From Escherichia phage KEP4: a stretch of 64,000 nt of DNA. The DNA lies in sequence record PP047754. The stretch is one strand, 5' to 3'. The position numbers were made by a program, and so were the translations under genes. Under the pieces are notes generated by a model. The model was given only the letters and a program-made list of their open reading frames with translations, was not told the DNA's origin and searched no databases. Shown here piece by piece: positions 12,258 through 60,154 of the stretch; position 1 is the stretch's first letter, and each line of letters opens with the position of its first letter.

Positions 12258-13003
12258 TGGTTTCTCTACAGGCTTTGCGCAAACTTAATGACTTTGAAAA
12301 TCGTCATCATACATTTCAGCAATATTCCTTGCCGTTTAAGGAACTGACTTGCGTAACTACCGAAAATGGTCGTCACTATGTTTCCCCCACTGGAGTCAAA
12401 CTAACTTCAGTGACGACCATGTTAGGGCGTACTGGTGACCACACATGGTTAGAAGCCTGGCGGGACAAGTTGGGGCATGAAGCTGCTGATATAGAAACAC
12501 ATCGTTGCGCAGACCGTGGGGAAAAACTTCATTTGGCTTGTGAGTTGTATCTCAAAAACAGACCAATGAAGGAAGTTCTGGAAGCTGCAGGGGAATACGT
12601 GTTTATGTTCAAACAGGTTTTCCCCTACCTTAACAAAATGAGCAAGATATATGCACAAGAGATTCCATTATATAGCGAAGTCCTGGGTCTTGCTGGTCGT
12701 GTTGACCTCATCGGGGTTTACGAAGGAATTCCAAGCATAATCGATTTCAAAACATCTAACACCCTAAAAACTCGAAGCATGATAGAAGATTATAGTATTC
12801 AATTGTGTCTATACTCAGTCATGTTTCAACAAATGTTTAATGTCAAGATAGAGCGTTTAATCAATATTATATCCAACGAAAATGCCCTTGTTCCCACCAT
12901 AATCGAATTCGATCGCAAAGACGTTATTTCTAAAATGTTTGACCGTGTCCGTCTGTATCACAAAATGGACAAAGAACAGAAAGGAATCTGGGCGGATCGC
13001 TAA
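12257..13003 (+). CDS. PD-(D/E)XK family nuclease candidate (RecB/Cas4-like), 248 aa
   Basis: GRVDLIGVY ... IIDFKTS (D...E/D.K) and QLCLY motifs; start ATG overlaps previous stop (TAATG). Confidence 0.45.
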   Translation: MVSLQALRKLNDFENRHHTFQQYSLPFKELTCVTTENGRHYVSPTGVKLTSVTTMLGRTGDHTWLEAWRDKLGHEAADIETHRCADRGEKLHLACELYLKNRPMKEVLEAAGEYVFMFKQVFPYLNKMSKIYAQEIPLYSEVLGLAGRVDLIGVYEGIPSIIDFKTSNTLKTRSMIEDYSIQLCLYSVMFQQMFNVKIERLINIISNENALVPTIIEFDRKDVISKMFDRVRLYHKMDKEQKGIWADR

Positions 13004-13032
13004 ATACTCCATAATATTGGGGGAAATTAGTG

Positions 13033-14532
13033 ATGTCTGAGATCCAAATAGTCAAAGTGAACGAAGTTAGAATGCGGATCCTCGCCGAGGATTATATCCG
13101 TGAAGAACTCAACGATTACTTCAAATTTGAAGATCCTAATTTCCAACCGAATCCGTTCAGTAAATGGGACGGCGTAGTGCGGCTGTTCACAAAGAGTTCT
13201 GGGCTTATCGACATCGGCCTGTTATTTGAGGTGTTCAAATTCTGTAAGATGAACGGTTACACCATCAAATTAGATCCGACCTTAAAATATATTCAAGATA
13301 TTCCGGATGAAGAAATTCATGCGTTCATCGATACATTGAATGCGGTGTACCGAGACGAAAACAAACAATATCAAAAAGCGATTGTCCGTGATTATCAATT
13401 TGATTCTGTTGCCACAGCAATACGCCAAAGCAGATGTGTCCTCGAAGCTGCCACGAGTGCTGGCAAATCCTTTATTTTGTACATCATGGCGCGTTACTAC
13501 AGGCAACGCAGAGATGCCCTCGAAAGTAATCTGAGGACGTTAATTGTTGTACCATCCATTCATTTGGTGACTCAGTTGTATGACAACTTCGAAGAATATA
13601 GCCACGGGACAGAATGGAAGCCATTGATGAACGTCCAGACAATATACGAAGGGGCAACGAAAGAGATTTTCAAACCCATAGTTATTTCAACTTGGCAAGG
13701 TATCCAGAACCAACCCAAAGAGTGGTTCCATCAATTTGGAGATATCGTCGTTGACGAAGTACATACATCAAAATCAGATAAATTGTCTTACATCTTGAAC
13801 AACTGTATTAACGCTGATCAACGTTTGGGAGTAACCGGAACCCTGGCGAATACAAAGGTCGCAGGGTTACAAGTCGTTGCTCACTTTGGCGCATATCATA
13901 AAATTATTACAGCGCGCGATTTAATCGATCTAGGATATGCGGCAGACATCAATGTTAATATGATTGAAGTCATACATCCTATGGCAGACTGTATTGAAAT
14001 GCACGGTGCTGAGTATCAAAAGGAAATAGAATTCCTCATTGCTAACGAACGCCGAAATGAATTGATAGCTCGAATGGCTCTATCTTTGAAAGGGAACGTG
14101 GCAGTCATGTTCGAACGTATCGATGCACACATGATGTTGGTTTATGAAATGCTATCGGCAGTCAAGAAAAACGTATTCGTCATCAACGGGGAAGTCAAGA
14201 CAGAAGTTCGTAAACAGATTCAGGCTGCTATGGAAGAAGGGGAAGATATAACACTGTTGGCATCATATGGTACTATGCAACAGGGCGTATCTATCAAAAA
14301 ACTCCATCATCTGATATTGGCCCATCCCAGCAAATCTTATATCCGTGTTATACAGACATTGGGGCGTTTGATGCGTCAGCATTCCTCTAAGGATGTTGCG
14401 CGAATCTGGGACCTGGTAGACAACCTGCGTTACAACGGTTCCTACAACCATGCTCTCAGGCATTCTCATGAGAGATATAAATTTTATCTTATGGAGCGCC
14501 ACCCTGTTAAAATGAAAAAAGTGGCGCTCTAA
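13033..14532 (+). CDS. uvsW: UvsW-like SF2 DNA/RNA helicase
   Basis: 499 aa; Walker A LEAATSAGKS, DEVH box (VVDEVHT); T4 UvsW size; lies after the capsid region as in T4. Confidence 0.75.
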   Translation: MSEIQIVKVNEVRMRILAEDYIREELNDYFKFEDPNFQPNPFSKWDGVVRLFTKSSGLIDIGLLFEVFKFCKMNGYTIKLDPTLKYIQDIPDEEIHAFIDTLNAVYRDENKQYQKAIVRDYQFDSVATAIRQSRCVLEAATSAGKSFILYIMARYYRQRRDALESNLRTLIVVPSIHLVTQLYDNFEEYSHGTEWKPLMNVQTIYEGATKEIFKPIVISTWQGIQNQPKEWFHQFGDIVVDEVHTSKSDKLSYILNNCINADQRLGVTGTLANTKVAGLQVVAHFGAYHKIITARDLIDLGYAADINVNMIEVIHPMADCIEMHGAEYQKEIEFLIANERRNELIARMALSLKGNVAVMFERIDAHMMLVYEMLSAVKKNVFVINGEVKTEVRKQIQAAMEEGEDITLLASYGTMQQGVSIKKLHHLILAHPSKSYIRVIQTLGRLMRQHSSKDVARIWDLVDNLRYNGSYNHALRHSHERYKFYLMERHPVKMKKVAL

Positions 14533-14537
14533 CCATT

Positions 14538-14903
14538 TCAAATATCTTGATTCACATAGGCGGGGGTTGCCTCGCCTTCTTTGTTGGAACCAAATAAACA
14601 GTCGATCGTGCCAATACATTGTTGTAGCACTTTCGGCTCAAGAATCTGAGAAAACAATTCTTCATTAGATGCCAGCAGTGGAACAACTTTCACTTCCCGC
14701 GCCTGGCCTTGTTGAATAATGCCAACATACAGACCTTTGTTATTTGGGAGTAATGGTATCACCAACATCGGTGACACAATAAACCCCGATGTACAGAAAA
14801 GGCTTTGTAAATAAACGCCTTTTAATGACGAACGTTGTTCTGATATGGAAAGAATTGCTTCTTGGTCTTCCCCTACTGCGTATAAACCAACAAATTGCTT
14901 CAT
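14538..14903 (-). CDS. hypothetical protein, 121 aa, reverse strand
   Basis: ATG-initiated reverse ORF convergent on uvsW; no competing forward ORF. Confidence 0.4.
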   Translation of the reverse strand: MKQFVGLYAVGEDQEAILSISEQRSSLKGVYLQSLFCTSGFIVSPMLVIPLLPNNKGLYVGIIQQGQAREVKVVPLLASNEELFSQILEPKVLQQCIGTIDCLFGSNKEGEATPAYVNQDI

Positions 14904-15242
14904 ATATTATTTCTCACGTGTTAGCAAACTTGGCTACATAATAATGTCATGCTCTGTTTAGACCAAATAAAATATTTTACTTGTTGAATAAAAATCGCTT
15001 TCTTGTTGAACAATCCGTGCGTAATATACGAGTTGTGAGCTTTGCGAGCAACGAGTATTATCACGAGCGAAGCGAGTAGACTGATAAAGAAAGGTTTTAT
15101 TAAAACAGAATATTATAAATGCCGTCAGGCATTTATTTATCGCGCGTAGGGCAATTTATCACTTGTTCTATAACTACAAACACGCGATACTAATTTGCGT
15201 CAAATATGACTTGAACCCCACTATATTTTGAGGATACAACTA
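14904..15242. promoter_or_regulatory. 340-bp AT-rich intergenic control region upstream of gp45
   Basis: Largest non-coding gap in the replisome region; contains TATAAATg (15114-15121), clustered GCGAG/CGAGC repeats (about 15038-15078), duplicated cttgttgaa. Confidence 0.4.
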
Positions 15243-15911
15243 ATGCAAGAGATCACTCTCTCCGAACGCACTTTACAACTGCTGGCTAACTTTGAAACCA
15301 TCTGCCCCTCTATCGTTCTGGCACCTGGTAAAAAGTTGCGCACTGTTAACGATTCCAGTACAGTTATCGCTATTGCCGACATTGACGAAGACTTCCCGTT
15401 CGAATTCCCGATTCTGGATCTGACCAAATTGCTGGCAATCCAGCGTCTGCCGAGTTTTAAAGGCGGTAAAATTGAAATGTCGGAAGACCACATTTTGCTG
15501 AAAGGTGAAAACTCCCAACTGCAATTCTGGCGTTCCGCTAAAGAACTGACTGTCGTTCCGGCAGACAGCATCGATCTCCCGTCTGTAGAATTTGAAGCAA
15601 CAGTCACTCCTGAAAAAATGAAAGAGCTGACCCGCGCATGTTCTACTCTGGGCCACAAAACTGTACGCCTGGTTGCCAGCGGCGGTAAAACTCGTCTGGT
15701 GGGCACGACCACTACTATCGACAATTCCAACGATTACACTGTTGAGTTGGGTGAAACAACTCTGGGTGATTTTGCTATGCCTGTTGATGTGGTCAACCTG
15801 AAAATGATCGAAGGCAACTACGTGATCCGCGCCTGTGCCGAAATGCAACTGGTTAACTTCCAATCCGCAGACGGCACCATCAACTATTACGTCGGCATGC
15901 AGCTGGATTAA
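15243..15911 (+). CDS. sliding clamp gp45
   Basis: 222 aa; N-terminus LSERTLQLLANFETICPSIVL resembles T4 gp45 (DTTALLKNFATINSGIML); upstream of clamp loader genes. Confidence 0.8.
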   Translation: MQEITLSERTLQLLANFETICPSIVLAPGKKLRTVNDSSTVIAIADIDEDFPFEFPILDLTKLLAIQRLPSFKGGKIEMSEDHILLKGENSQLQFWRSAKELTVVPADSIDLPSVEFEATVTPEKMKELTRACSTLGHKTVRLVASGGKTRLVGTTTTIDNSNDYTVELGETTLGDFAMPVDVVNLKMIEGNYVIRACAEMQLVNFQSADGTINYYVGMQLD

Positions 15912-57217: not shown

Positions 57218-58843
57218 TCATGCGCCTTTACCACCAAAATTGCCGCCGTTATCCTCTAACTCCGGTTTTATATCAATTGGACCTGGGCCTGTAGTTGTTA
57301 CAGGAGTTGCCCCCGCACGTGAGGCGGCGCGACCAGCGCCTTCAGCATATTTGATGTTGCCTTCAATAGTCTGCGCCACCGACAACTTATCACAAACTAT
57401 TTCACTAGCCAGTATTTTAGGCACTTTCAAAGTATTGGAAACTTCCAACATTTCACAGATGAGACGCAACACGTTCTGTGCCTGTATCTCTGCCAATTGG
57501 GAAAATTTCATCAACGCCGTGCCAGCGACCACATTGGAGTAGTTAGAAGAGTGCAAGTGGTAAACTTCTCCTGTCTTACGCTGTACTTCAGTCCCGCCGA
57601 TAGTCAGGTTGTGATCACGACCAACATAGTAACGTTTGTCAAACATCGTCAGATCATAATGATCTTTGACTGATTTATTGACCACGTCCCCGTCAGGAAG
57701 CATCTGCTTATAAGACCCCGAGGAGTGCATCCAATGGAGACGTTCCCCGCCTGGTGTGTCATCAACCTCCATAATATGCCCCGACCGAGATGCCATGACA
57801 TTGTTGTAAGGATAACGAGACCCGCCAGCAGAAGGAACCGACACCTCTCCTGTGTTATCAATATCTTGAACACGCCCAGAAGGAGGCGGAGTTTCCTGAA
57901 CTTTTGGTGTACGATCAGGGATTGGCTCAGACCATTTACCATTTTGTTGTGTAGGAGCCGCCGATGCTGTCGTAGCAGGACCAGGCCAACGATAACCCAA
58001 CACAGATGAGCGGCTGAAGCGACTCACCTTCACAGAATCTGATTGGTTGCCTCCAATACACCAAACATAATTGGCATCGAATTTCTGCACGAACGCAACG
58101 TGTCCGAATGTTGGGTTGTTGCCACGCCGGAATACAACAACAGCGCCGTAGCGGGGTTCCGACAAAGGGGAACCCCATTGCAAATATGAACGAGCCAAAG
58201 CCGAGCGCGTTGAAGTGTATCCTGCTTGGATCAACACCCATCCCACAAATGAAGCGCACCAGCTGACTTCATCTTCCGAAGCGCCCAAAGATGTTGTCTT
58301 GTGATATTCCAAAATCCTTGGGTTATTATTGAATTTGCCAGAATATTCTTTGACACCTAATTCACCACGAGCCACTGTCATCCATTTCTCAGGATCATAA
58401 CCGTCTACAGGCGGTTGAGGTTCTGGTTGTGGGTCGTCTTCAATCTTGACAGGAACATTTTCAACGGCGTTATATTTCTGTCTTTCTATAGATTGAACAA
58501 CCTGGCCCAGCGCCAACGGGTTTGTGTCTGAACCATCCGTTGGTGTCGCCGCTGGCCAAACCCAGGCGATACGAATATTTTGGTATGCTTCATCCAAAGC
58601 AAATCCCATAACATCCGACCCGACTGTAATACCCGTTGGAGACCAGCCTAAACCTGCCGAGGAGGCGTTGGATGCTGGCATGAGCATTTTACCCCAAGGC
58701 AATAATTCGGTAGGTAAGAGAGTGGTATCTTCCGTGTGTACACCATAGATGCGCACAGCGACGCGCCCGTTCTGGTCGGGATCATTCACGTCTTCAACGC
58801 GCCCGTAAAACCAACGCAAGTTGTCTAACATATTGAAACCCAT
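57218..58843 (-). CDS. baseplate central spike/hub protein gp5 with CHAP/NlpC-P60-like peptidase domain
   Basis: N-terminus LRWFYGRVEDVNDPDQNGRVAVRIYGVHTEDTTLLPTELLPW matches the gp5 OB domain; middle VSWCASFVGWVLIQAGY ... GHVAFV resembles a Cys/His CHAP core, not a T4-lysozyme domain. Confidence 0.65.
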   Translation of the reverse strand: MGFNMLDNLRWFYGRVEDVNDPDQNGRVAVRIYGVHTEDTTLLPTELLPWGKMLMPASNASSAGLGWSPTGITVGSDVMGFALDEAYQNIRIAWVWPAATPTDGSDTNPLALGQVVQSIERQKYNAVENVPVKIEDDPQPEPQPPVDGYDPEKWMTVARGELGVKEYSGKFNNNPRILEYHKTTSLGASEDEVSWCASFVGWVLIQAGYTSTRSALARSYLQWGSPLSEPRYGAVVVFRRGNNPTFGHVAFVQKFDANYVWCIGGNQSDSVKVSRFSRSSVLGYRWPGPATTASAAPTQQNGKWSEPIPDRTPKVQETPPPSGRVQDIDNTGEVSVPSAGGSRYPYNNVMASRSGHIMEVDDTPGGERLHWMHSSGSYKQMLPDGDVVNKSVKDHYDLTMFDKRYYVGRDHNLTIGGTEVQRKTGEVYHLHSSNYSNVVAGTALMKFSQLAEIQAQNVLRLICEMLEVSNTLKVPKILASEIVCDKLSVAQTIEGNIKYAEGAGRAASRAGATPVTTTGPGPIDIKPELEDNGGNFGGKGA

Positions 58844-59350
58844 TAGTCAATTAGAATCATGGGTTATTTATGGCGGGGATTTGAAATCTGTCGAATAGTA
58901 ATATTATAGGAAGCTCTGCTTCCGTTCAATTTTATTCTTTTCGTTTCTACTCGCTGAAGCTCGTAACACCGCCTTGACAGGCAGTCCCATTCCAATGCCA
59001 TGGAGGCATAAAGGCGAGGAAAATACTGTACACCTCAGAACATGCGTAGAAAAGGATTATTTTTGCTTCAAAACAAATTCAAACCCCAATTTACACAACA
59101 CTTACTTCAGCAACAACGGTGTTATAGCAATTTAAGGTTAAACGTTCCTGTCTTAACCTATAAAACAGGTAAGCAAAGAAAACCCCACATTACGTGGGGT
59201 TGGAAGATTTCTTGGACAAACGTATCTTTAGTGTCTCTGTTAGCAAATCAAGATGCCAAGGCATCGACTCGCTTATTTCAAATATGCTATAGCCATGTGC
59301 CTTTAATTCGTCACACATCACAAAGTAGGAGAGTAAATCAATTTCAAAAA

Positions 59351-60154
59351 TTAAATGAAAATTTCAGTGACACTGTTAAATTTGACTTCATGTTCTTTCC
59401 CACACGAAGGACATTTAATTTTCGTCGCGTAACGGATACGAGGAATCTTTTTAAAGAAATCGTCGGATATATCTTGAACAATCTCAGATTCAATATTTTC
59501 CCCCACCCATTTAACAAATTCATCTTTGACGCGTTGACGTTCTTTAGCAACATCAGGTGCTATGCCAGGCTCTGCCGGATTCTCTACTTTCCAAACCTGA
59601 CCATCATCGTCATACAAACAATCAATAAATGTCGCGATCATTTGCTCCACAGATGATGCTTCGTTGAGCACTGAGGCGTCCGAGAAGGACGGTTGACGCA
59701 TCTTGATGTGATAGCCACCAGGGAGGTCAAATGTTTCCCTGAAGCCTTCTGGGGACACGCATTTCACTTGGTTGAGGGGGATCGGTAAAACAAGTTCTTG
59801 ACCACATTCTTTAAGGCCAGAAACTGGTTCTTCACCTTCATTTGTGTCGGATGGAACTTTGTTGTTACATTTGTATCGTATCTTCATGACCTCGCCGATA
59901 GATATACAGCGCATCTTTAAAAATACTTCTTCAGTAACACCGATTGGCAGTTTACTAAAGGGAACCCCAGCGTCAACACAACTATCAAACAGTTGCTCCA
60001 GCGTCGCCACACGTTCACTCATAGGAGTGTTCGGATCAGCAACCTGAAGTAACATGGTCTGTTGCCCTGCTGTGAAAGCGCGGTATTTAATCACCGTCGG
60101 CCAGAAATCACTTTTGTGTGTTCTCTCAGTTTTGGGCAATGATGGTAAATTCAT
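59351..60154 (-). CDS. late structural protein, probable baseplate component (identity uncertain), 267 aa
   Basis: GGAGA RBS and TATAAATA late promoter upstream on the - strand; co-oriented with gp5 and gp25; C-terminal CPSCGKEHE zinc-ribbon-like motif; ORF-track start 60247 not used. Confidence 0.4.
   Translation of the reverse strand: MNLPSLPKTERTHKSDFWPTVIKYRAFTAGQQTMLLQVADPNTPMSERVATLEQLFDSCVDAGVPFSKLPIGVTEEVFLKMRCISIGEVMKIRYKCNNKVPSDTNEGEEPVSGLKECGQELVLPIPLNQVKCVSPEGFRETFDLPGGYHIKMRQPSFSDASVLNEASSVEQMIATFIDCLYDDDGQVWKVENPAEPGIAPDVAKERQRVKDEFVKWVGENIESEIVQDISDDFFKKIPRIRYATKIKCPSCGKEHEVKFNSVTEIFI

What the first reader, a model, noticed from the sequence alone, without database searches (positions are those of the whole stretch)
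14904..15242. 340-bp AT-rich non-coding region with clustered GCGAG repeats upstream of the replisome operon
The largest intergenic gap near the replication genes lies between a reverse-strand ORF and gp45. It carries a near-consensus late promoter (TATAAATg, 15114-15121), four GCGAG/CGAGC repeats within about 40 bp (15038-15078), duplicated cttgttgaa, and no convincing ORF. It could be a replication origin, a regulator-binding array, or encode a small RNA.
Basis: seen in the sequence. Interest (0 to 1): 0.45.

Follow-up and report, generated by a model that had tools for sequence, protein, structure and literature searches.

The report
Conserved G·A-zippered hairpin module before gp45
The "GCGAG repeats" are the paired arms of two unusual hairpins inside a promoter, hairpin and AT-rich module that is conserved across a whole phage family and occurs three times per genome; it is most likely a replication origin or a non-coding RNA, and it is neither a late promoter nor a protein-binding repeat array.

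Summary
The window is a Kuttervirus (Ackermannviridae). Region 14904-15242 is non-coding and lies between a reverse ORF and gp45. In detail: five CGAG copies fall within 48 nt, which never occurred in 300 simulations.

The repeats are not a binding array. CGAG pairs with CGAG (C-G, tandem sheared G·A, G-C), forming two plus-strand hairpins: HP1 (15026-15058) and HP2 (15063-15077, containing GCGAAGC). Pairing survives in seven genera through compensatory substitutions and matched insertions on both arms, even where gp45 is only 56% identical.

Around the hairpins lie:
- a conserved promoter-like box with a TAnTAT -10 upstream;
- a 42-63-nt tract of 13-25% GC and a third hairpin downstream;
- a separate gp45 promoter (TTGTTC-17-GATACT).

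"TATAAATG" is one arm of the third hairpin. It is not conserved and occurs at chance frequency. The phage's own enriched upstream motif is CTAAATA.

Two paralogous modules sit upstream of gp6 and gp5. There is no Rfam hit, no plasmid or E. coli match, and no literature match.

My best reading (about 0.4) is a transcription-primed origin of the T4 oriF/oriG type. The main rival (about 0.3) is a structured small or leader RNA. Only experiments can decide between them.

The parts
14538..14903 (-). Divergent 121-aa ORF of unknown function. It forms the left boundary of the region.
   Evidence: ORF list. phrog_4255 'unknown function', E 1e-61. No Pfam hit. Annotated as hypothetical, or mislabelled 'clamp loader subunit', in relatives.
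14938..14966 (-). Candidate sigma70-type promoter for the reverse ORF: -35 TTGGTC (14966->14961), 17-nt spacer, -10 TATTAT (14943->14938).
   Evidence: Read from the sequence. Both hexamers are conserved with a variable 17-nt spacer in Kuttervirus, Aglimvirinae/Yersinia and Taipeivirus (alignment A1). Not clearly kept in Miltonvirus. This is an inference.
14988..15027 (+). Promoter-like element of the module: an A-tract (ATAAAAAT, 14988-14995), the box GCTTTCTTG (14997-15005, -35-like TTCTTG 15000-15005), a 16-nt spacer and the -10-like TAATAT (15022-15027). It contains the second 'cttgttgaa'.
   Evidence: Conserved blocks are separated by a spacer of near-constant length (16-17 nt; the window is 1 nt shorter than the other genera) and variable sequence in all genera. 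The same A-tract / CTTT(T)CT(A/T)(C/G) / 15-16 nt / TAnnnT layout occurs in paralogs B and C. The box occurs in the genome only at these loci. No transcription start has been mapped.
15026..15058 (+). Hairpin HP1: AUA-CGAG-UUGU-GA-GC[UUU]GC-GA-GCAA-CGAG-UAU. It has 10 Watson-Crick pairs, 1 G·U and two tandem G·A blocks.
   Evidence: It is the MFE structure, -10.8 kcal/mol as RNA, z -2.95. The complementary strand gives -3.9, z -0.8. Across 10 distinct sequences 99.3% of cells are paired, with 3 pairs changed on both sides. All 11 full-length instances from orthologs and paralog B keep 10-13 WC pairs plus 4 G·A with at most 1 mismatch, including matched +1 bp (Erwinia) and +3 bp (Miltonvirus) insertions. 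The 5'-truncated IMG/VR contig L040 pairs the same way when read by hand.
15063..15077 (+). Hairpin HP2: A-CGAG-C[GAA]G-CGAG-U. It contains the GCGAAGC mini-hairpin sequence (15067-15073).
   Evidence: The closing pair C64-G76 becomes U-A in Aglimvirinae/Yersinia. The loop varies (GAA, GUA, AAA, UUCA, AAC) while the stem is kept in 11 ortholog and paralog instances. GCGNAGC mini-hairpin: PMC13037366. CGAG block: PMC10085684.
15078..15140 (.). AT-rich tract (63 nt, 25% GC). Its sequence is not conserved but its composition and length class are.
   Evidence: The tract is 42-63 nt at 13-25% GC in nine phages of seven genera. The 40-mer 15081-15120 is the 5th least stable non-overlapping 40-mer of the ~156-kb genome, rank fraction 0.0003. 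It evolves by tandem duplication in L035/L039.
15115..15136 (+). Hairpin HP3: AUAAAUGCC[GUCA]GGCAUUUAU, followed by UUAUCG.
   Evidence: -10.8 kcal/mol as RNA, z -3.1; -7.8 as DNA, z -3.5. It is replaced by different hairpins at the same place: AAAUGCC[GAA]GGCAUUU in Aglimvirinae and AAUAGAU[UA]AUCUAUU in Taipeivirus, and AU-only stems in Miltonvirus. The scan does not flag it as a + strand terminator, and no terminator-like site lies between the hairpins and the gp45 promoter region in Taipei-, Nezavisimisty- or Miltonvirus.
15141..15147 (.). CGCGCG(t) motif that closes the AT tract.
   Evidence: An (A)CGCGCG(C)GAG-like motif follows the AT tract in locus A of all genera and in paralog B. Its function is unknown.
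15160..15192 (+). Proximal promoter of the gp45 operon: -35 TTGTTC (15163-15168), 17-nt spacer, -10 GATACT (15186-15191).
   Evidence: CACTTGTTCTATA and GCGATACTA are invariant in 7 sequences from about 5 genera, and the 17-nt spacer varies in sequence only. Miltonviruses carry near-consensus TTGCAT-17-TATAAT and TTGTCA-16-TATAAT in the same interval. This is an inference.
15243..15911 (+). gp45 sliding clamp, first gene of the 45-44-62-regA block. The SD is GAGGA, 15230-15234.
58844..59054 (-). Paralog C of the module, upstream of gp5 hub/lysozyme (57218-58843, -). Elements in order: box CTTTTCTAC (59054->59046), 15 nt, TACAGT (59030->59025), HPa GCCUCCAUGGC (59007->58997), HPb within 58988->58969, HP2 ACGAGC[UUCA]GCGAGU (58964->58949), hairpin GGAAGC[AGA]GCUUCC, then CATAAATA (58872->58865).
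   Evidence: Weak CM hit. Sequence. Motif scan. gp5 = phrog_430. Conserved in Limestonevirus and Taipeivirus with covariation in HPb and the last hairpin.

Best explanation
SHOWN. The region is a conserved non-coding module, not a repeat array.
- The CGAG/GCGAG copies are the two arms of plus-strand hairpins HP1 (15026-15058) and HP2 (15063-15077). In them CGAG pairs with CGAG through C-G, two sheared G·A pairs and G-C.
- A promoter-like element (A-tract, box, 16 nt, TAATAT) lies immediately upstream.
- A 63-nt tract of 25% GC containing a third hairpin lies downstream.
- gp45 has its own promoter after that.
- The module is one of three paralogs in the genome.

INFERRED, about 0.4. The module is a transcription-primed replication origin of the T4 oriF/oriG type. 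RNA polymerase starts at the box promoter and transcribes rightwards. The RNA stays hybridised in the easily melted AT tract as an R-loop and primes leading-strand synthesis towards the replisome genes. The displaced non-template (+) strand folds into the G·A-zippered hairpins with GNA or GNNA loops. These resist re-annealing and SSB coating, and so keep the bubble open or mark the primosome loading site.
For: Structure:
- MFE fold and strand asymmetry.
- 99.3% of cells paired, with compensatory pairs, in 10 distinct sequences.
- All 11 full-length HP1 and 11 HP2 instances from seven genera and the paralogs keep the pairing. This includes C-G to U-A and A-U changes, an A-U to U-A to C-G series in the outer stem, and matched arm insertions (the truncated L040 copy agrees when read by hand).
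- Indels rule out coding.

Origin-like anatomy:
[quoted passage not shown] T4 has at least 5 origins, and several lie at transcriptional divergence or skew shifts (PMC3016281).
- Here there is a box plus TAnnnT promoter-like element.
- The AT tract is conserved only in composition and is among the 5 least stable 40-mers of the genome.
- There are three copies per genome.
- Locus A sits between divergent genes next to uvsY, uvsW and gp45.
- Paralog B lies about 0.5-1 kb from the global cumulative GC-skew minimum and at the main strand switch.
- In paralogs B and C the hairpins lie upstream of late-type CTAAATA/CATAAATA motifs, so they are not leaders of the main late mRNAs.

DNA-type features:
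- The loops and closing pairs match DNA mini-hairpins found at known ssDNA priming or initiation sites: GCGAAGC; GCGTTAGC (St-1/alpha3; seen in L035); CCGAAGG (RSF1010 ssiA; HP3 of Aglimvirinae); GCGGAGC (N4; Miltonvirus 3M) (PMC13037366).
- CGAG blocks are established in DNA hairpins (PMC10085684).
- The outer stem of HP1 overlaps the -10 in locus A, so it cannot all be in an RNA started there.
Against: - There are no replication, R-loop or transcript data for any Ackermannvirus.
- T4 origins share no motif and have no such hairpins (PMC3016281).
- The AT tract downstream of the hairpins is short or unremarkable in paralogs B and C.
- The skew minimum at B is confounded with gene orientation, and locus A shows no skew shift.
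- Persistent G·U (G·T) wobbles in HP1 and HPb fit RNA better than DNA.
- A structurally conserved hairpin after the AT tract looks like an RNA 3' end or terminator and has no role in the origin model.
- The predicted promoter has a poor -35, and no start site has been mapped.
Confidence: 0.4

Rival explanations
1. Structured non-coding RNA. The box promoter fires and the hairpins form in the transcript. The RNA could be a discrete small RNA of about 105-110 nt running from about 15033 to the HP3 hairpin near 15140. It could instead be the 5' leader of a distal-promoter transcript of the gp45 operon. The G·A platforms would bind a phage or host factor, for example for put/nut-like antitermination through HP3, for processing, or to sequester a protein. 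The three paralogs would be three related RNAs.
For: - A promoter-like element with a conserved -10 lies directly upstream in all three paralogs and all genera. In B and C the -10 lies 10-11 nt before the first hairpin, so the hairpins would be wholly transcribed.
- The structure is sense-strand specific.
- G·U wobbles are conserved.
- The hairpin after the AU-rich tract is kept by different sequences in loci A and C: GGAAGC/GCUUCC against GGAUGC/GCAUCC.
- The CBA120 authors proposed that antitermination may control delayed-early genes (PMC3184105).
Against: - In locus A the -10 abuts HP1, so its outer stem, which covaries, would not be in the RNA.
- HP3 is a poor intrinsic terminator, and only AU-rich stems occur there in Taipei-, Nezavisimisty- and Miltonvirus.
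- The AU-rich 'single-stranded' part is not conserved in sequence, so there is no seed.
- GNYA and GNA loops are typical of stable DNA hairpins rather than stable RNA hairpins (PMC13037366).
- gp45, gp5 and gp6 share no temporal class, and each has its own proximal promoter motif downstream of the hairpins.
- There is no Rfam match.
Confidence: 0.3
2. A double-stranded DNA operator or iteron array. The CGAG/GCGAG copies and the TTGTT-G-AACAA palindrome would bind a phage regulator that controls the divergent promoters.
For: The CGAG tetramers themselves are invariant. The palindrome TTGTTGAACAA lies at 15003-15013. The region sits between divergent promoters.
Against: - The spacing is irregular at 16, 7, 12 and 9 nt.
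- Changes are compensatory between partner positions, not conservative within each repeat. Arm insertions are matched on both sides.
- The clustering is on one strand only.
- No DNA-binding gene is linked; the neighbouring ORF has no known fold family.
Confidence: 0.07
3. A late promoter (TATAAATG, 15114-15121) drives late transcription of gp45.
For: It matches T4 TATAAATA at 7 of 8 positions. The phage encodes gp55 and gp33 homologues (PMC3184105).
Against: - TATAAATA occurs 3 times against 1.6 expected, and TATAAAT 11 times against 9.1.
- The sequence reads CATAAATG or AATAGATT in relatives.
- It is a hairpin arm.
- It lies 122 nt from the ATG, whereas 17 of 24 CTAAATA sites lie 28-50 nt from a start codon.
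- The enriched motif is CTAAATA: 15 observed against 1.07 expected. The same motif was derived for phage Aeh1 (PMC1524935).
Confidence: 0.03
4. A small protein gene: the 35-aa ORF 15042-15149 or the 32-aa ORF 14981-15079, as annotated in some GenBank records.
For: It is annotated as a hypothetical protein in Mutine and the SeKF phages.
Against: The starts are TTG. The frame is broken by 1-, 3-, 4- and 5-nt indels between genera. The open frames differ in frame and extent.
Confidence: 0.02

Closest known systems
Bacteriophage T4 origins oriF/ori(uvsY) and oriG/ori(34) (R-loop origins)
   Same: Both are compact (~100-150 bp). Both have a promoter with a non-canonical upstream box and a sigma70-type -10, followed by an A+T-rich unwinding tract whose sequence is free. 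Both occur in several copies per genome, near recombination and replication genes and at strand-switch or skew regions (PMC3016281).
   Different: T4 origins share no sequence motif and have no conserved hairpins. The T4 box is bound by MotA, which ViI-like phages lack (PMC3184105). Here three loci share G·A-zippered hairpin modules between the promoter and the AT tract. Origin activity is untested.
DNA mini-hairpins GCGNAGC/GCGNNAGC at single-strand initiation sites (G4, St-1, alpha3 complementary-strand origins; RSF1010 ssiA; N4 virion-RNAP promoters)
   Same: The same heptamers and octamers occur at the hairpin tips: GCGAAGC, GCGTAGC, GCGGAGC, GCGTTAGC, GCGTCAGC and CCGAAGG. All have a C-G closing pair and a sheared G·A (PMC13037366).
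   Different: The known cases act on genuinely single-stranded genomes or on extruded promoters read by a dedicated polymerase or primase. This is a dsDNA myovirus with a T4-type replisome. No RepB', DnaG-type or N4-type enzyme is implicated, and some tips (UUU, UUUA, UUCA, AAC) do not fit the consensus.
CGAG-block hairpins (human AUTS2 promoter DNA)
   Same: The repeating unit is identical: 5'-CGAG-3' opposite 5'-CGAG-3', giving C:G, two sheared G:A and G:C (PMC10085684).
   Different: The AUTS2 element is a long pure CGAG repeat with register shifts. Here single blocks are embedded in Watson-Crick stems at fixed positions and are conserved for that geometry.
Promoter-proximal two-hairpin antitermination RNAs (HK022 put; lambda nut boxB). 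This comparison is from my own knowledge.
   Same: Two short hairpins lie just downstream of a promoter and upstream of terminator-like hairpins, at the head of long co-directional gene blocks.
   Different: There is no sequence or loop similarity and no Rfam hit. The downstream hairpins are weak terminators. In locus A part of HP1 lies upstream of the predicted start.
T4-family late promoters (TATAAATA; CTAAATA in Aeh1)
   Same: TATAAATG resembles the T4 octamer.
   Different: It is not conserved, it is part of a hairpin, and it is too far from the ATG. The phage's own enriched motif is CTAAATA (PMC1524935).

Membership tests
T4-type R-loop origin (oriF/oriG) | Promoter with a sigma70-type -10 and a phage-specific upstream box, directed into the element | tested here: inconclusive
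   The box / 15-16 nt / TAnnnT layout has a spacer that varies in sequence at fixed or near-fixed length (constant within loci B and C; 16-17 nt in locus A). It is present in all genera and in all three paralogs. No transcription start site or activator is known.
T4-type R-loop origin (oriF/oriG) | [quoted passage not shown] | tested here: met
   The tract is 42-63 nt at 13-25% GC in nine phages, with no sequence conservation. The 40-mer 15081-15120 ranks 5th least stable of the ~156-kb genome. In paralogs B and C the tract is weaker.
T4-type R-loop origin (oriF/oriG) | Persistent R-loop, priming of leading-strand synthesis, and autonomous replication of a plasmid carrying the element | not testable with these tools
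   This needs marker-frequency sequencing, DRIP or S1 mapping, and an origin-plasmid assay.
T4-type R-loop origin (oriF/oriG) | Location at transcriptional divergence or a nucleotide-skew shift (typical of origins, not obligatory) | tested here: inconclusive
   Locus A has a local divergence (one reverse gene) and no skew shift. Paralog B lies at the main strand switch, about 0.5-1 kb from the global cumulative GC-skew minimum, but skew is confounded with gene orientation.
T4-family late promoter | Match to the family's -10 octamer, and enrichment of that octamer upstream of late genes in this genome | tested here: not met
   The site reads TATAAATG. TATAAATA occurs at chance frequency. The enriched motif is CTAAATA, 15 observed against 1.07 expected.
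T4-family late promoter | Position about 25-50 nt upstream of the start codon, and conservation in relatives | tested here: not met
   The site is 122 nt upstream. It reads CATAAATG or AATAGATT in other genera. CTAAATA sites lie 28-50 nt upstream of start codons.
DNA mini-hairpin / CGAG-block structures | The sequence GCGNAGC or GCGNNAGC, and antiparallel Y-GA-R tetramers | tested here: met
   GCGAAGC is at 15067-15073. CGAG/CGAG and UGAG/CGAG blocks are present in HP1 and HP2. Variants keep the consensus in most genera (PMC13037366, PMC10085684).
DNA mini-hairpin / CGAG-block structures | The structure actually forms in single-stranded DNA in vivo | not testable with these tools
   The ViennaRNA DNA parameters carry no bonus for sheared G·A pairs or mini-hairpins, so one search is uninformative. 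Chemical probing is needed.
Described RNA families (Rfam 15) | A covariance-model hit at or near the gathering score | tested here: not met
   No relevant hit at E<=10 for locus A, B or C.
Small RNA gene with an intrinsic terminator | A GC-rich stem followed by a U-tract at a conserved distance from the promoter | tested here: inconclusive
   HP3 folds at -10.8 kcal/mol but its tail is UUAUCG, and the scan does not flag it on the + strand. Only AU-rich stems occur in Taipei-, Nezavisimisty- and Miltonvirus. A hairpin is nevertheless kept at that place.
Iteron / operator array | Regularly spaced direct repeats recognised as duplex DNA | tested here: not met
   The spacing is irregular at 16, 7, 12 and 9 nt. 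Changes between partner positions are compensatory, and arm insertions are matched.

The most novel reading that the evidence does not exclude
Ackermannviridae mark their replication origins, three per genome, with a dedicated module. A promoter fires into a pair of G·A-zippered hairpins with GNA or GNNA loops on the non-template strand. These fold as SSB-resistant DNA mini-hairpins once displaced, lock the R-loop open over an adjacent unwinding tract, and recruit the primosome. This would be the first sequence-defined, structure-specific origin signal in a T4-related phage. It would also be a dsDNA-phage use of the mini-hairpin priming signals so far known from ssDNA phages and plasmid ssi sites.
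Probability: 0.2. Interest if true: 0.8.

Novelty: new variant of a known kind. Interest (0 to 1): 0.6.

Why it matters
No origin, early or middle promoter, or regulatory RNA has been defined for the ViI-like phages (Ackermannviridae). These phages are widely used for biocontrol of Salmonella, E. coli O157, Klebsiella and Dickeya. The CBA120 authors stated explicitly that these signals were unidentified (PMC3184105).

This module is the most conserved non-coding element found in the region examined. It is more conserved than the adjacent clamp gene. It is present three times per genome and is built on a rare motif, the tandem sheared G·A 'CGAG block' with GNA-type tips. It therefore gives a precise, mutable target of about 150 bp for asking how these phages start replication or control their long operons.

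If it is an origin, it would link T4-type R-loop initiation with the mini-hairpin priming signals of ssDNA replicons. If it is an RNA, it is a new structured RNA family with three paralogs.

As a by-product, the analysis gives a testable late-promoter consensus for the genus (CTAAATA). It also corrects several GenBank annotations: spurious small ORFs, and a 'clamp loader subunit' label on the reverse ORF.

Tried and rejected
- Rfam scans of loci A, B and C found nothing relevant.
- The 35-aa and 32-aa ORFs were rejected because of frame-breaking indels.
- A T4 late promoter was rejected.
- I considered a MotA-box middle promoter, because TGCTTTC resembles TGCTTtA. I rejected it because the spacing to the -10 is about 19-20 nt rather than 11-13, and the family lacks MotA/AsiA (PMC3184105).
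- The scan's sigma70 hits at 14944-14973 (+) and 15033-15061 (+) are not supported by the conservation pattern. The second lies inside HP1.
- Metagenome pattern hits L030, L032 and L034 look like eukaryotic contigs, and L031 is low-complexity sequence. I treated all as chance.
- No copy was found upstream of gp45 in the distant Vibrio D493 and Aeromonas TSW001 phages.
- There is no similarity in PLSDB plasmids or in 5,426 E. coli genomes.
- Literature searches for transcriptomes, promoters or origins of Ackermannviridae, and for the sequence strings themselves, returned nothing relevant.
- The LIMEstone1 record's predicted 'middle promoter' on the opposite strand inside the hairpins is a consensus guess and does not fit the conservation pattern.
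- I noted a resemblance of HPb and HP3 to type I-F CRISPR repeats and to the RfaH ops element from memory. The match is too weak (5 bp) to pursue.
- The MAFFT alignment of the Miltonvirus arms was wrong. I replaced it with a CM-guided alignment and a manual structural alignment.
- The pseudo-genome had to be stitched from three pieces, because the window is not identical to FEC14 over its full length.
Full report
**Identity and context.** A 1-kb stretch of the window around the locus (14400-15400) is 100% identical to Escherichia phage FEC14 and Salmonella phage Se-B (Kuttervirus, Ackermannviridae). The window differs from FEC14 elsewhere by indels. The local gene order is uvsY-like, exonuclease-like ORF, uvsW helicase (13030-14532, +), a 121-aa reverse ORF (14538-14903, -), then gp45 (ATG 15243), gp44, gp62 and regA. 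The finding is therefore the 339-nt gap between a single divergent gene and the clamp operon.

**The observation.**
- The gap has 34.5% GC against 44.9% for the window.
- CGAG occurs five times in 48 nt (15029, 15045, 15052, 15064, 15073). In 300 first-order Markov simulations of the window the maximum per 50 nt was 4, in 5 of 300 runs. The opposite strand reaches only 2.
- TATAAATG is at 15114-15121 and CTTGTTGAA at 14980 and 15002.

**Conservation.** The whole gap is conserved at 74-80% nucleotide identity in Limestonevirus, Agtrevirus, Taipeivirus and a Yersinia phage. The CGAG block is nearly invariant even in Erwinia phage Bue1 (Nezavisimistyvirus) and Serratia Miltonviruses, whose gp45 proteins are only about 56% identical to that of the window. 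The region is not coding. Between the two CGAG clusters the genera differ by +3, +4 and +5 nt, a 1-nt indel separates the box from the -10, and the open frames differ in frame and extent. The small ORFs annotated in some records are not supported.

**What the repeats are.** Each CGAG pairs with another CGAG on the same strand through C-G, G·A, A·G and G-C.
- HP1 (15026-15058) reads AUA-CGAG-UUGU-GA-GC[UUU]GC-GA-GCAA-CGAG-UAU.
- HP2 (15063-15077) reads A-CGAG-C[GAA]G-CGAG-U.

ViennaRNA recovers both hairpins in the MFE fold of 15015-15150. HP1 alone folds at -10.8 kcal/mol (z -2.95), whereas its complement gives -3.9 (z -0.8). On ten distinct sequences 99.3% of cells form standard pairs, three pairs change on both sides, and sliding the partners by ±1-3 columns collapses pairing to 14-49%.

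A structural tabulation of HP1 and HP2 instances from orthologs and paralogs shows 10-13 Watson-Crick pairs plus four G·A in all 11 full-length HP1 copies, and intact stems in all 11 HP2 copies. A twelfth, 5'-truncated HP1 copy (L040) was mis-registered in that table but pairs the same way when read by hand. The variation seen is:
- the apical pair changes from C-G to U-A (Aglimvirinae) or A-U (IMG/VR contig L040);
- U·G changes to U-A or G-C;
- the outer-block closing pair changes from C-G to U-A (LIMEstone1 locus B);
- the outer stem runs AUA/UAU, AUU/AAU, CUU/AAG;
- the HP2 closing pair changes from C-G to U-A;
- matched insertions occur on both arms, +1 bp in Erwinia and +3 bp in Miltonvirus.

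The G·A positions never change. The structure exists only on the + strand, because the complement would carry C·T mismatches.

This geometry is documented for DNA as the 'CGAG block' (PMC10085684). The tips match the 'mini-hairpin DNA' consensus GCGNAGC/GCGNNAGC: GCGAAGC, GCGTAGC, GCGGAGC, GCGTTAGC and GCGTCAGC, and CCGAAGG in the third hairpin of Aglimvirinae. That motif is far more stable as DNA than as RNA. It is known at the complementary-strand origins of G4, St-1 and alpha3, at RSF1010 ssiA and in N4 early promoters (PMC13037366).

**The rest of the gap.** Phylogenetic footprinting shows four further features.
1. There is a likely promoter for the reverse ORF on the - strand (TTGGTC-17-TATTAT, 14966->14938).
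2. A promoter-like element faces right. It has an A-tract (14988-14995), the box GCTTTCTTG (14997-15005), a spacer of near-constant length (16-17 nt) and variable sequence, and TA[A/T/C/G]TAT (15022-15027) abutting HP1. In Miltonvirus it reads TTGGAC-17-TAGTAT.
3. After HP2 comes a tract of 42-63 nt at 13-25% GC. Its sequence is not conserved and it evolves by tandem duplication. The 40-mer 15081-15120 is the fifth least stable in the ~156-kb genome. The tract contains a third hairpin, HP3 (15115-15136), which other genera replace with different hairpins, and it ends in a CGCGCG motif.
4. The blocks CACTTGTTCTATA and GCGATACTA are invariant in 7 sequences from about 5 genera. They are separated by 17 variable nucleotides (15160-15192) and form the proximal gp45 promoter. 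Miltonviruses have near-consensus TTGCAT-17-TATAAT and TTGTCA-16-TATAAT there.

**The 'late promoter'.** TATAAATG is the 5' arm of HP3. It reads CATAAATG in Aglimvirinae and AATAGATT in Taipeivirus, and it lies 122 nt from the ATG. TATAAATA (3 against 1.6 expected) and TATAAAT (11 against 9.1) are at chance frequency.

A de novo k-mer test on the 80 nt upstream of 212 ORF-called genes singles out CTAAATA (15 against 1.07 expected) and CTAAATAC (9 against 0.44). Of 24 genomic CTAAATA sites, 17 lie 28-50 nt from a start codon. These include the tail, baseplate and neck genes and uvsW. All nine sites in the window are on the coding strand. The same heptamer was derived for Aeromonas phage Aeh1 (PMC1524935), and the CBA120 paper states that the ViI-family late consensus was unknown (PMC3184105).

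**Paralogs.** A covariance model built from ten sequences finds one copy in the window. In the rest of the FEC14 genome it finds two tandem copies (43.6 bits, E 3e-8) upstream of gp6 baseplate wedge, which I call locus B. A weak hit led to locus C upstream of gp5 hub/lysozyme at window 58844-59054 (-).
- Locus B in LIMEstone1 and KpS110 reads box, 15 nt, TATnnT, HP1, HPa (NNGCC[UCCAU]GGCNN), HPb (ACUGCCU[GUCA]AGGCGGU), HP2 (ACGAGCGAAGCGAGU), AT-rich tract, CGCGCG, CTAAATAT, gp6. FEC14 has duplicated a 125-bp unit.
- Locus C has box, 15 nt, TACAGT, HPa, HPb, HP2 (UUCA loop), an AU-rich stretch, the hairpin GGAAGC[AGA]GCUUCC, CATAAATA, gp5.
- Locus A has HP1 plus HP2 only.

HPa, HPb and the last hairpin of C show compensatory changes between genera and between paralogs. 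All three loci are conserved in Kuttervirus, Aglimvirinae and Taipeivirus. The box occurs nowhere else in the genome.

Locus B lies at the main strand switch, about 0.5-1 kb from the global minimum of cumulative GC skew. That minimum is confounded with gene orientation. Locus A shows no skew shift.

There are no hits in Rfam, PLSDB plasmids, E. coli genomes or the searchable literature. No copy was found upstream of gp45 in the distant Vibrio and Aeromonas relatives.

**Mechanism.**
Shown: a strand-specific, selected pairing; a promoter-like layout upstream; a composition-conserved low-stability tract downstream; three modular paralogs.

Inferred: what the module does. I favour, at about 0.4, a transcription-primed origin of the T4 oriF/oriG kind. 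Minimal T4 origins are about 100 bp and consist of a promoter with an upstream activator box and a sigma70-type -10, plus an A+T-rich unwinding element of arbitrary sequence. The RNA forms a persistent R-loop and leaves the non-template strand single-stranded. T4 has at least five origins, several of them at strand-switch or skew regions (PMC3016281).

The module fits this anatomy. The hairpins lie on the non-template strand and have DNA-type tips. In loci B and C they lie upstream of the late-type promoter motifs, so they are not leaders of those mRNAs. In locus A the outer stem of HP1 overlaps the -10, so it cannot all be in an RNA started there.

Four points count against the origin reading:
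- T4 origins have no hairpins or shared motifs.
- The AT tract is unremarkable in B and C.
- G·U wobbles persist.
- A hairpin is kept after the AT tract, which suggests an RNA 3' end.

The main rival, at about 0.3, is a structured RNA. It would be either a small RNA of about 105 nt or a distal-promoter leader, possibly acting in a put/nut-like way on HP3. A duplex operator array (0.07), a late promoter (0.03) and a small protein (0.02) are unlikely. The remaining probability covers functions not considered here.

**Comparison and novelty.** The module works like a T4 R-loop origin in layout and resembles ssDNA priming signals in its hairpin chemistry. It cannot be filed as a member of either, because the defining activities are untested and T4 origins lack the hairpins. 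It belongs to no described RNA family. I rate it a new variant of a known kind: a promoter-linked, structured, cis-acting element, either an origin or a non-coding RNA. Interest is 0.6. It is a sharply defined, deeply conserved, unusual motif in a phage family whose origins and early control signals are unknown, and simple experiments can decide its role.

Noticed in passing
window 3107, 4325, 13000, 26005, 41882, 42469, 46184, 46780, 61198 (all + strand): CTAAATA(c) is strongly enriched 28-50 nt upstream of start codons genome-wide: 15 observed against 1.07 expected. It is the probable late promoter of this Kuttervirus. The same heptamer was derived for Aeromonas phage Aeh1 (PMC1524935), and the ViI-family consensus was stated to be unknown in 2011 (PMC3184105)..
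   Followed up: partly
window 13000-13006 (uvsW ATG at 13033): uvsW carries a CTAAATA motif 27 nt upstream of its ATG. It probably has a late promoter, as in T4, where late UvsW unwinds origin R-loops (PMC3016281).
   Followed up: no
window 58844-59054 (-): Paralog C of the module (box, TACAGT, HPa, HPb, HP2 with a UUCA loop, GGAAGC hairpin, CATAAATA) lies upstream of gp5 hub/lysozyme (57218-58843). The + ORF 59042-59656 that overlaps it is probably spurious. LIMEstone1 and KpS110 have gp26, a small ORF and a terminator there.
   Followed up: partly
L060 27492-27968 (-) = FEC14 record 134891-135367: Paralog B lies upstream of gp6 baseplate wedge. It carries the full set HP1-HPa-HPb-HP2. A 125-bp unit is tandemly duplicated in FEC14 but single in most Kutterviruses. 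The locus sits at the main strand switch, about 0.5-1 kb from the global cumulative GC-skew minimum.
   Followed up: partly
L033 (metagenome contig CYGL01000298.1) 1493-1700, compared with L035 (CYGL01000502.1): In L033 the locus-A hairpins are followed directly by the locus-C downstream sequence and gp5. This is the junction expected from an inversion of the ~44-kb segment between the inverted paralogs A and C, or from a chimeric assembly. L035 (accession from the same series) has the normal arrangement.
   Followed up: no
window 14558-14577 (+): A GC-rich hairpin plus T-run (AGGCGGGGGTTGCCTCGCCT TCTTTG) lies 26 nt after the uvsW stop, inside the 3' end of the reverse ORF. It is probably the uvsW terminator, and possibly bidirectional.
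   Followed up: no
window 14538-14903 (-): The reverse ORF is labelled 'clamp loader subunit' in several GenBank records (Det7, heyday, bering, Se-B RefSeq). It matches only phrog_4255 (unknown function) and no Pfam family. The Erwinia phage Bue1 counterpart (149 aa, L027 1682-2131) is unannotated and matched no PHROG or Pfam family.
   Followed up: partly
L035/L039 AT tract; L004 2591-3247; L005/L026 uvsW: The AT tract of locus A carries an 18-nt tandem duplication (TTATTATCTTTAATAAAG) in two metagenomic or IMG/VR phages. The Yersinia phage has a homing endonuclease inserted between gp45 and gp44. Dickeya phages have an intron or HEG splitting uvsW.
   Followed up: no
window 15003-15013: A perfect 11-bp palindrome, TTGTT-G-AACAA, overlaps the -35-like part of the box promoter. 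It is conserved as TGTTGAACA in most genera. Its significance is unknown.
   Followed up: no
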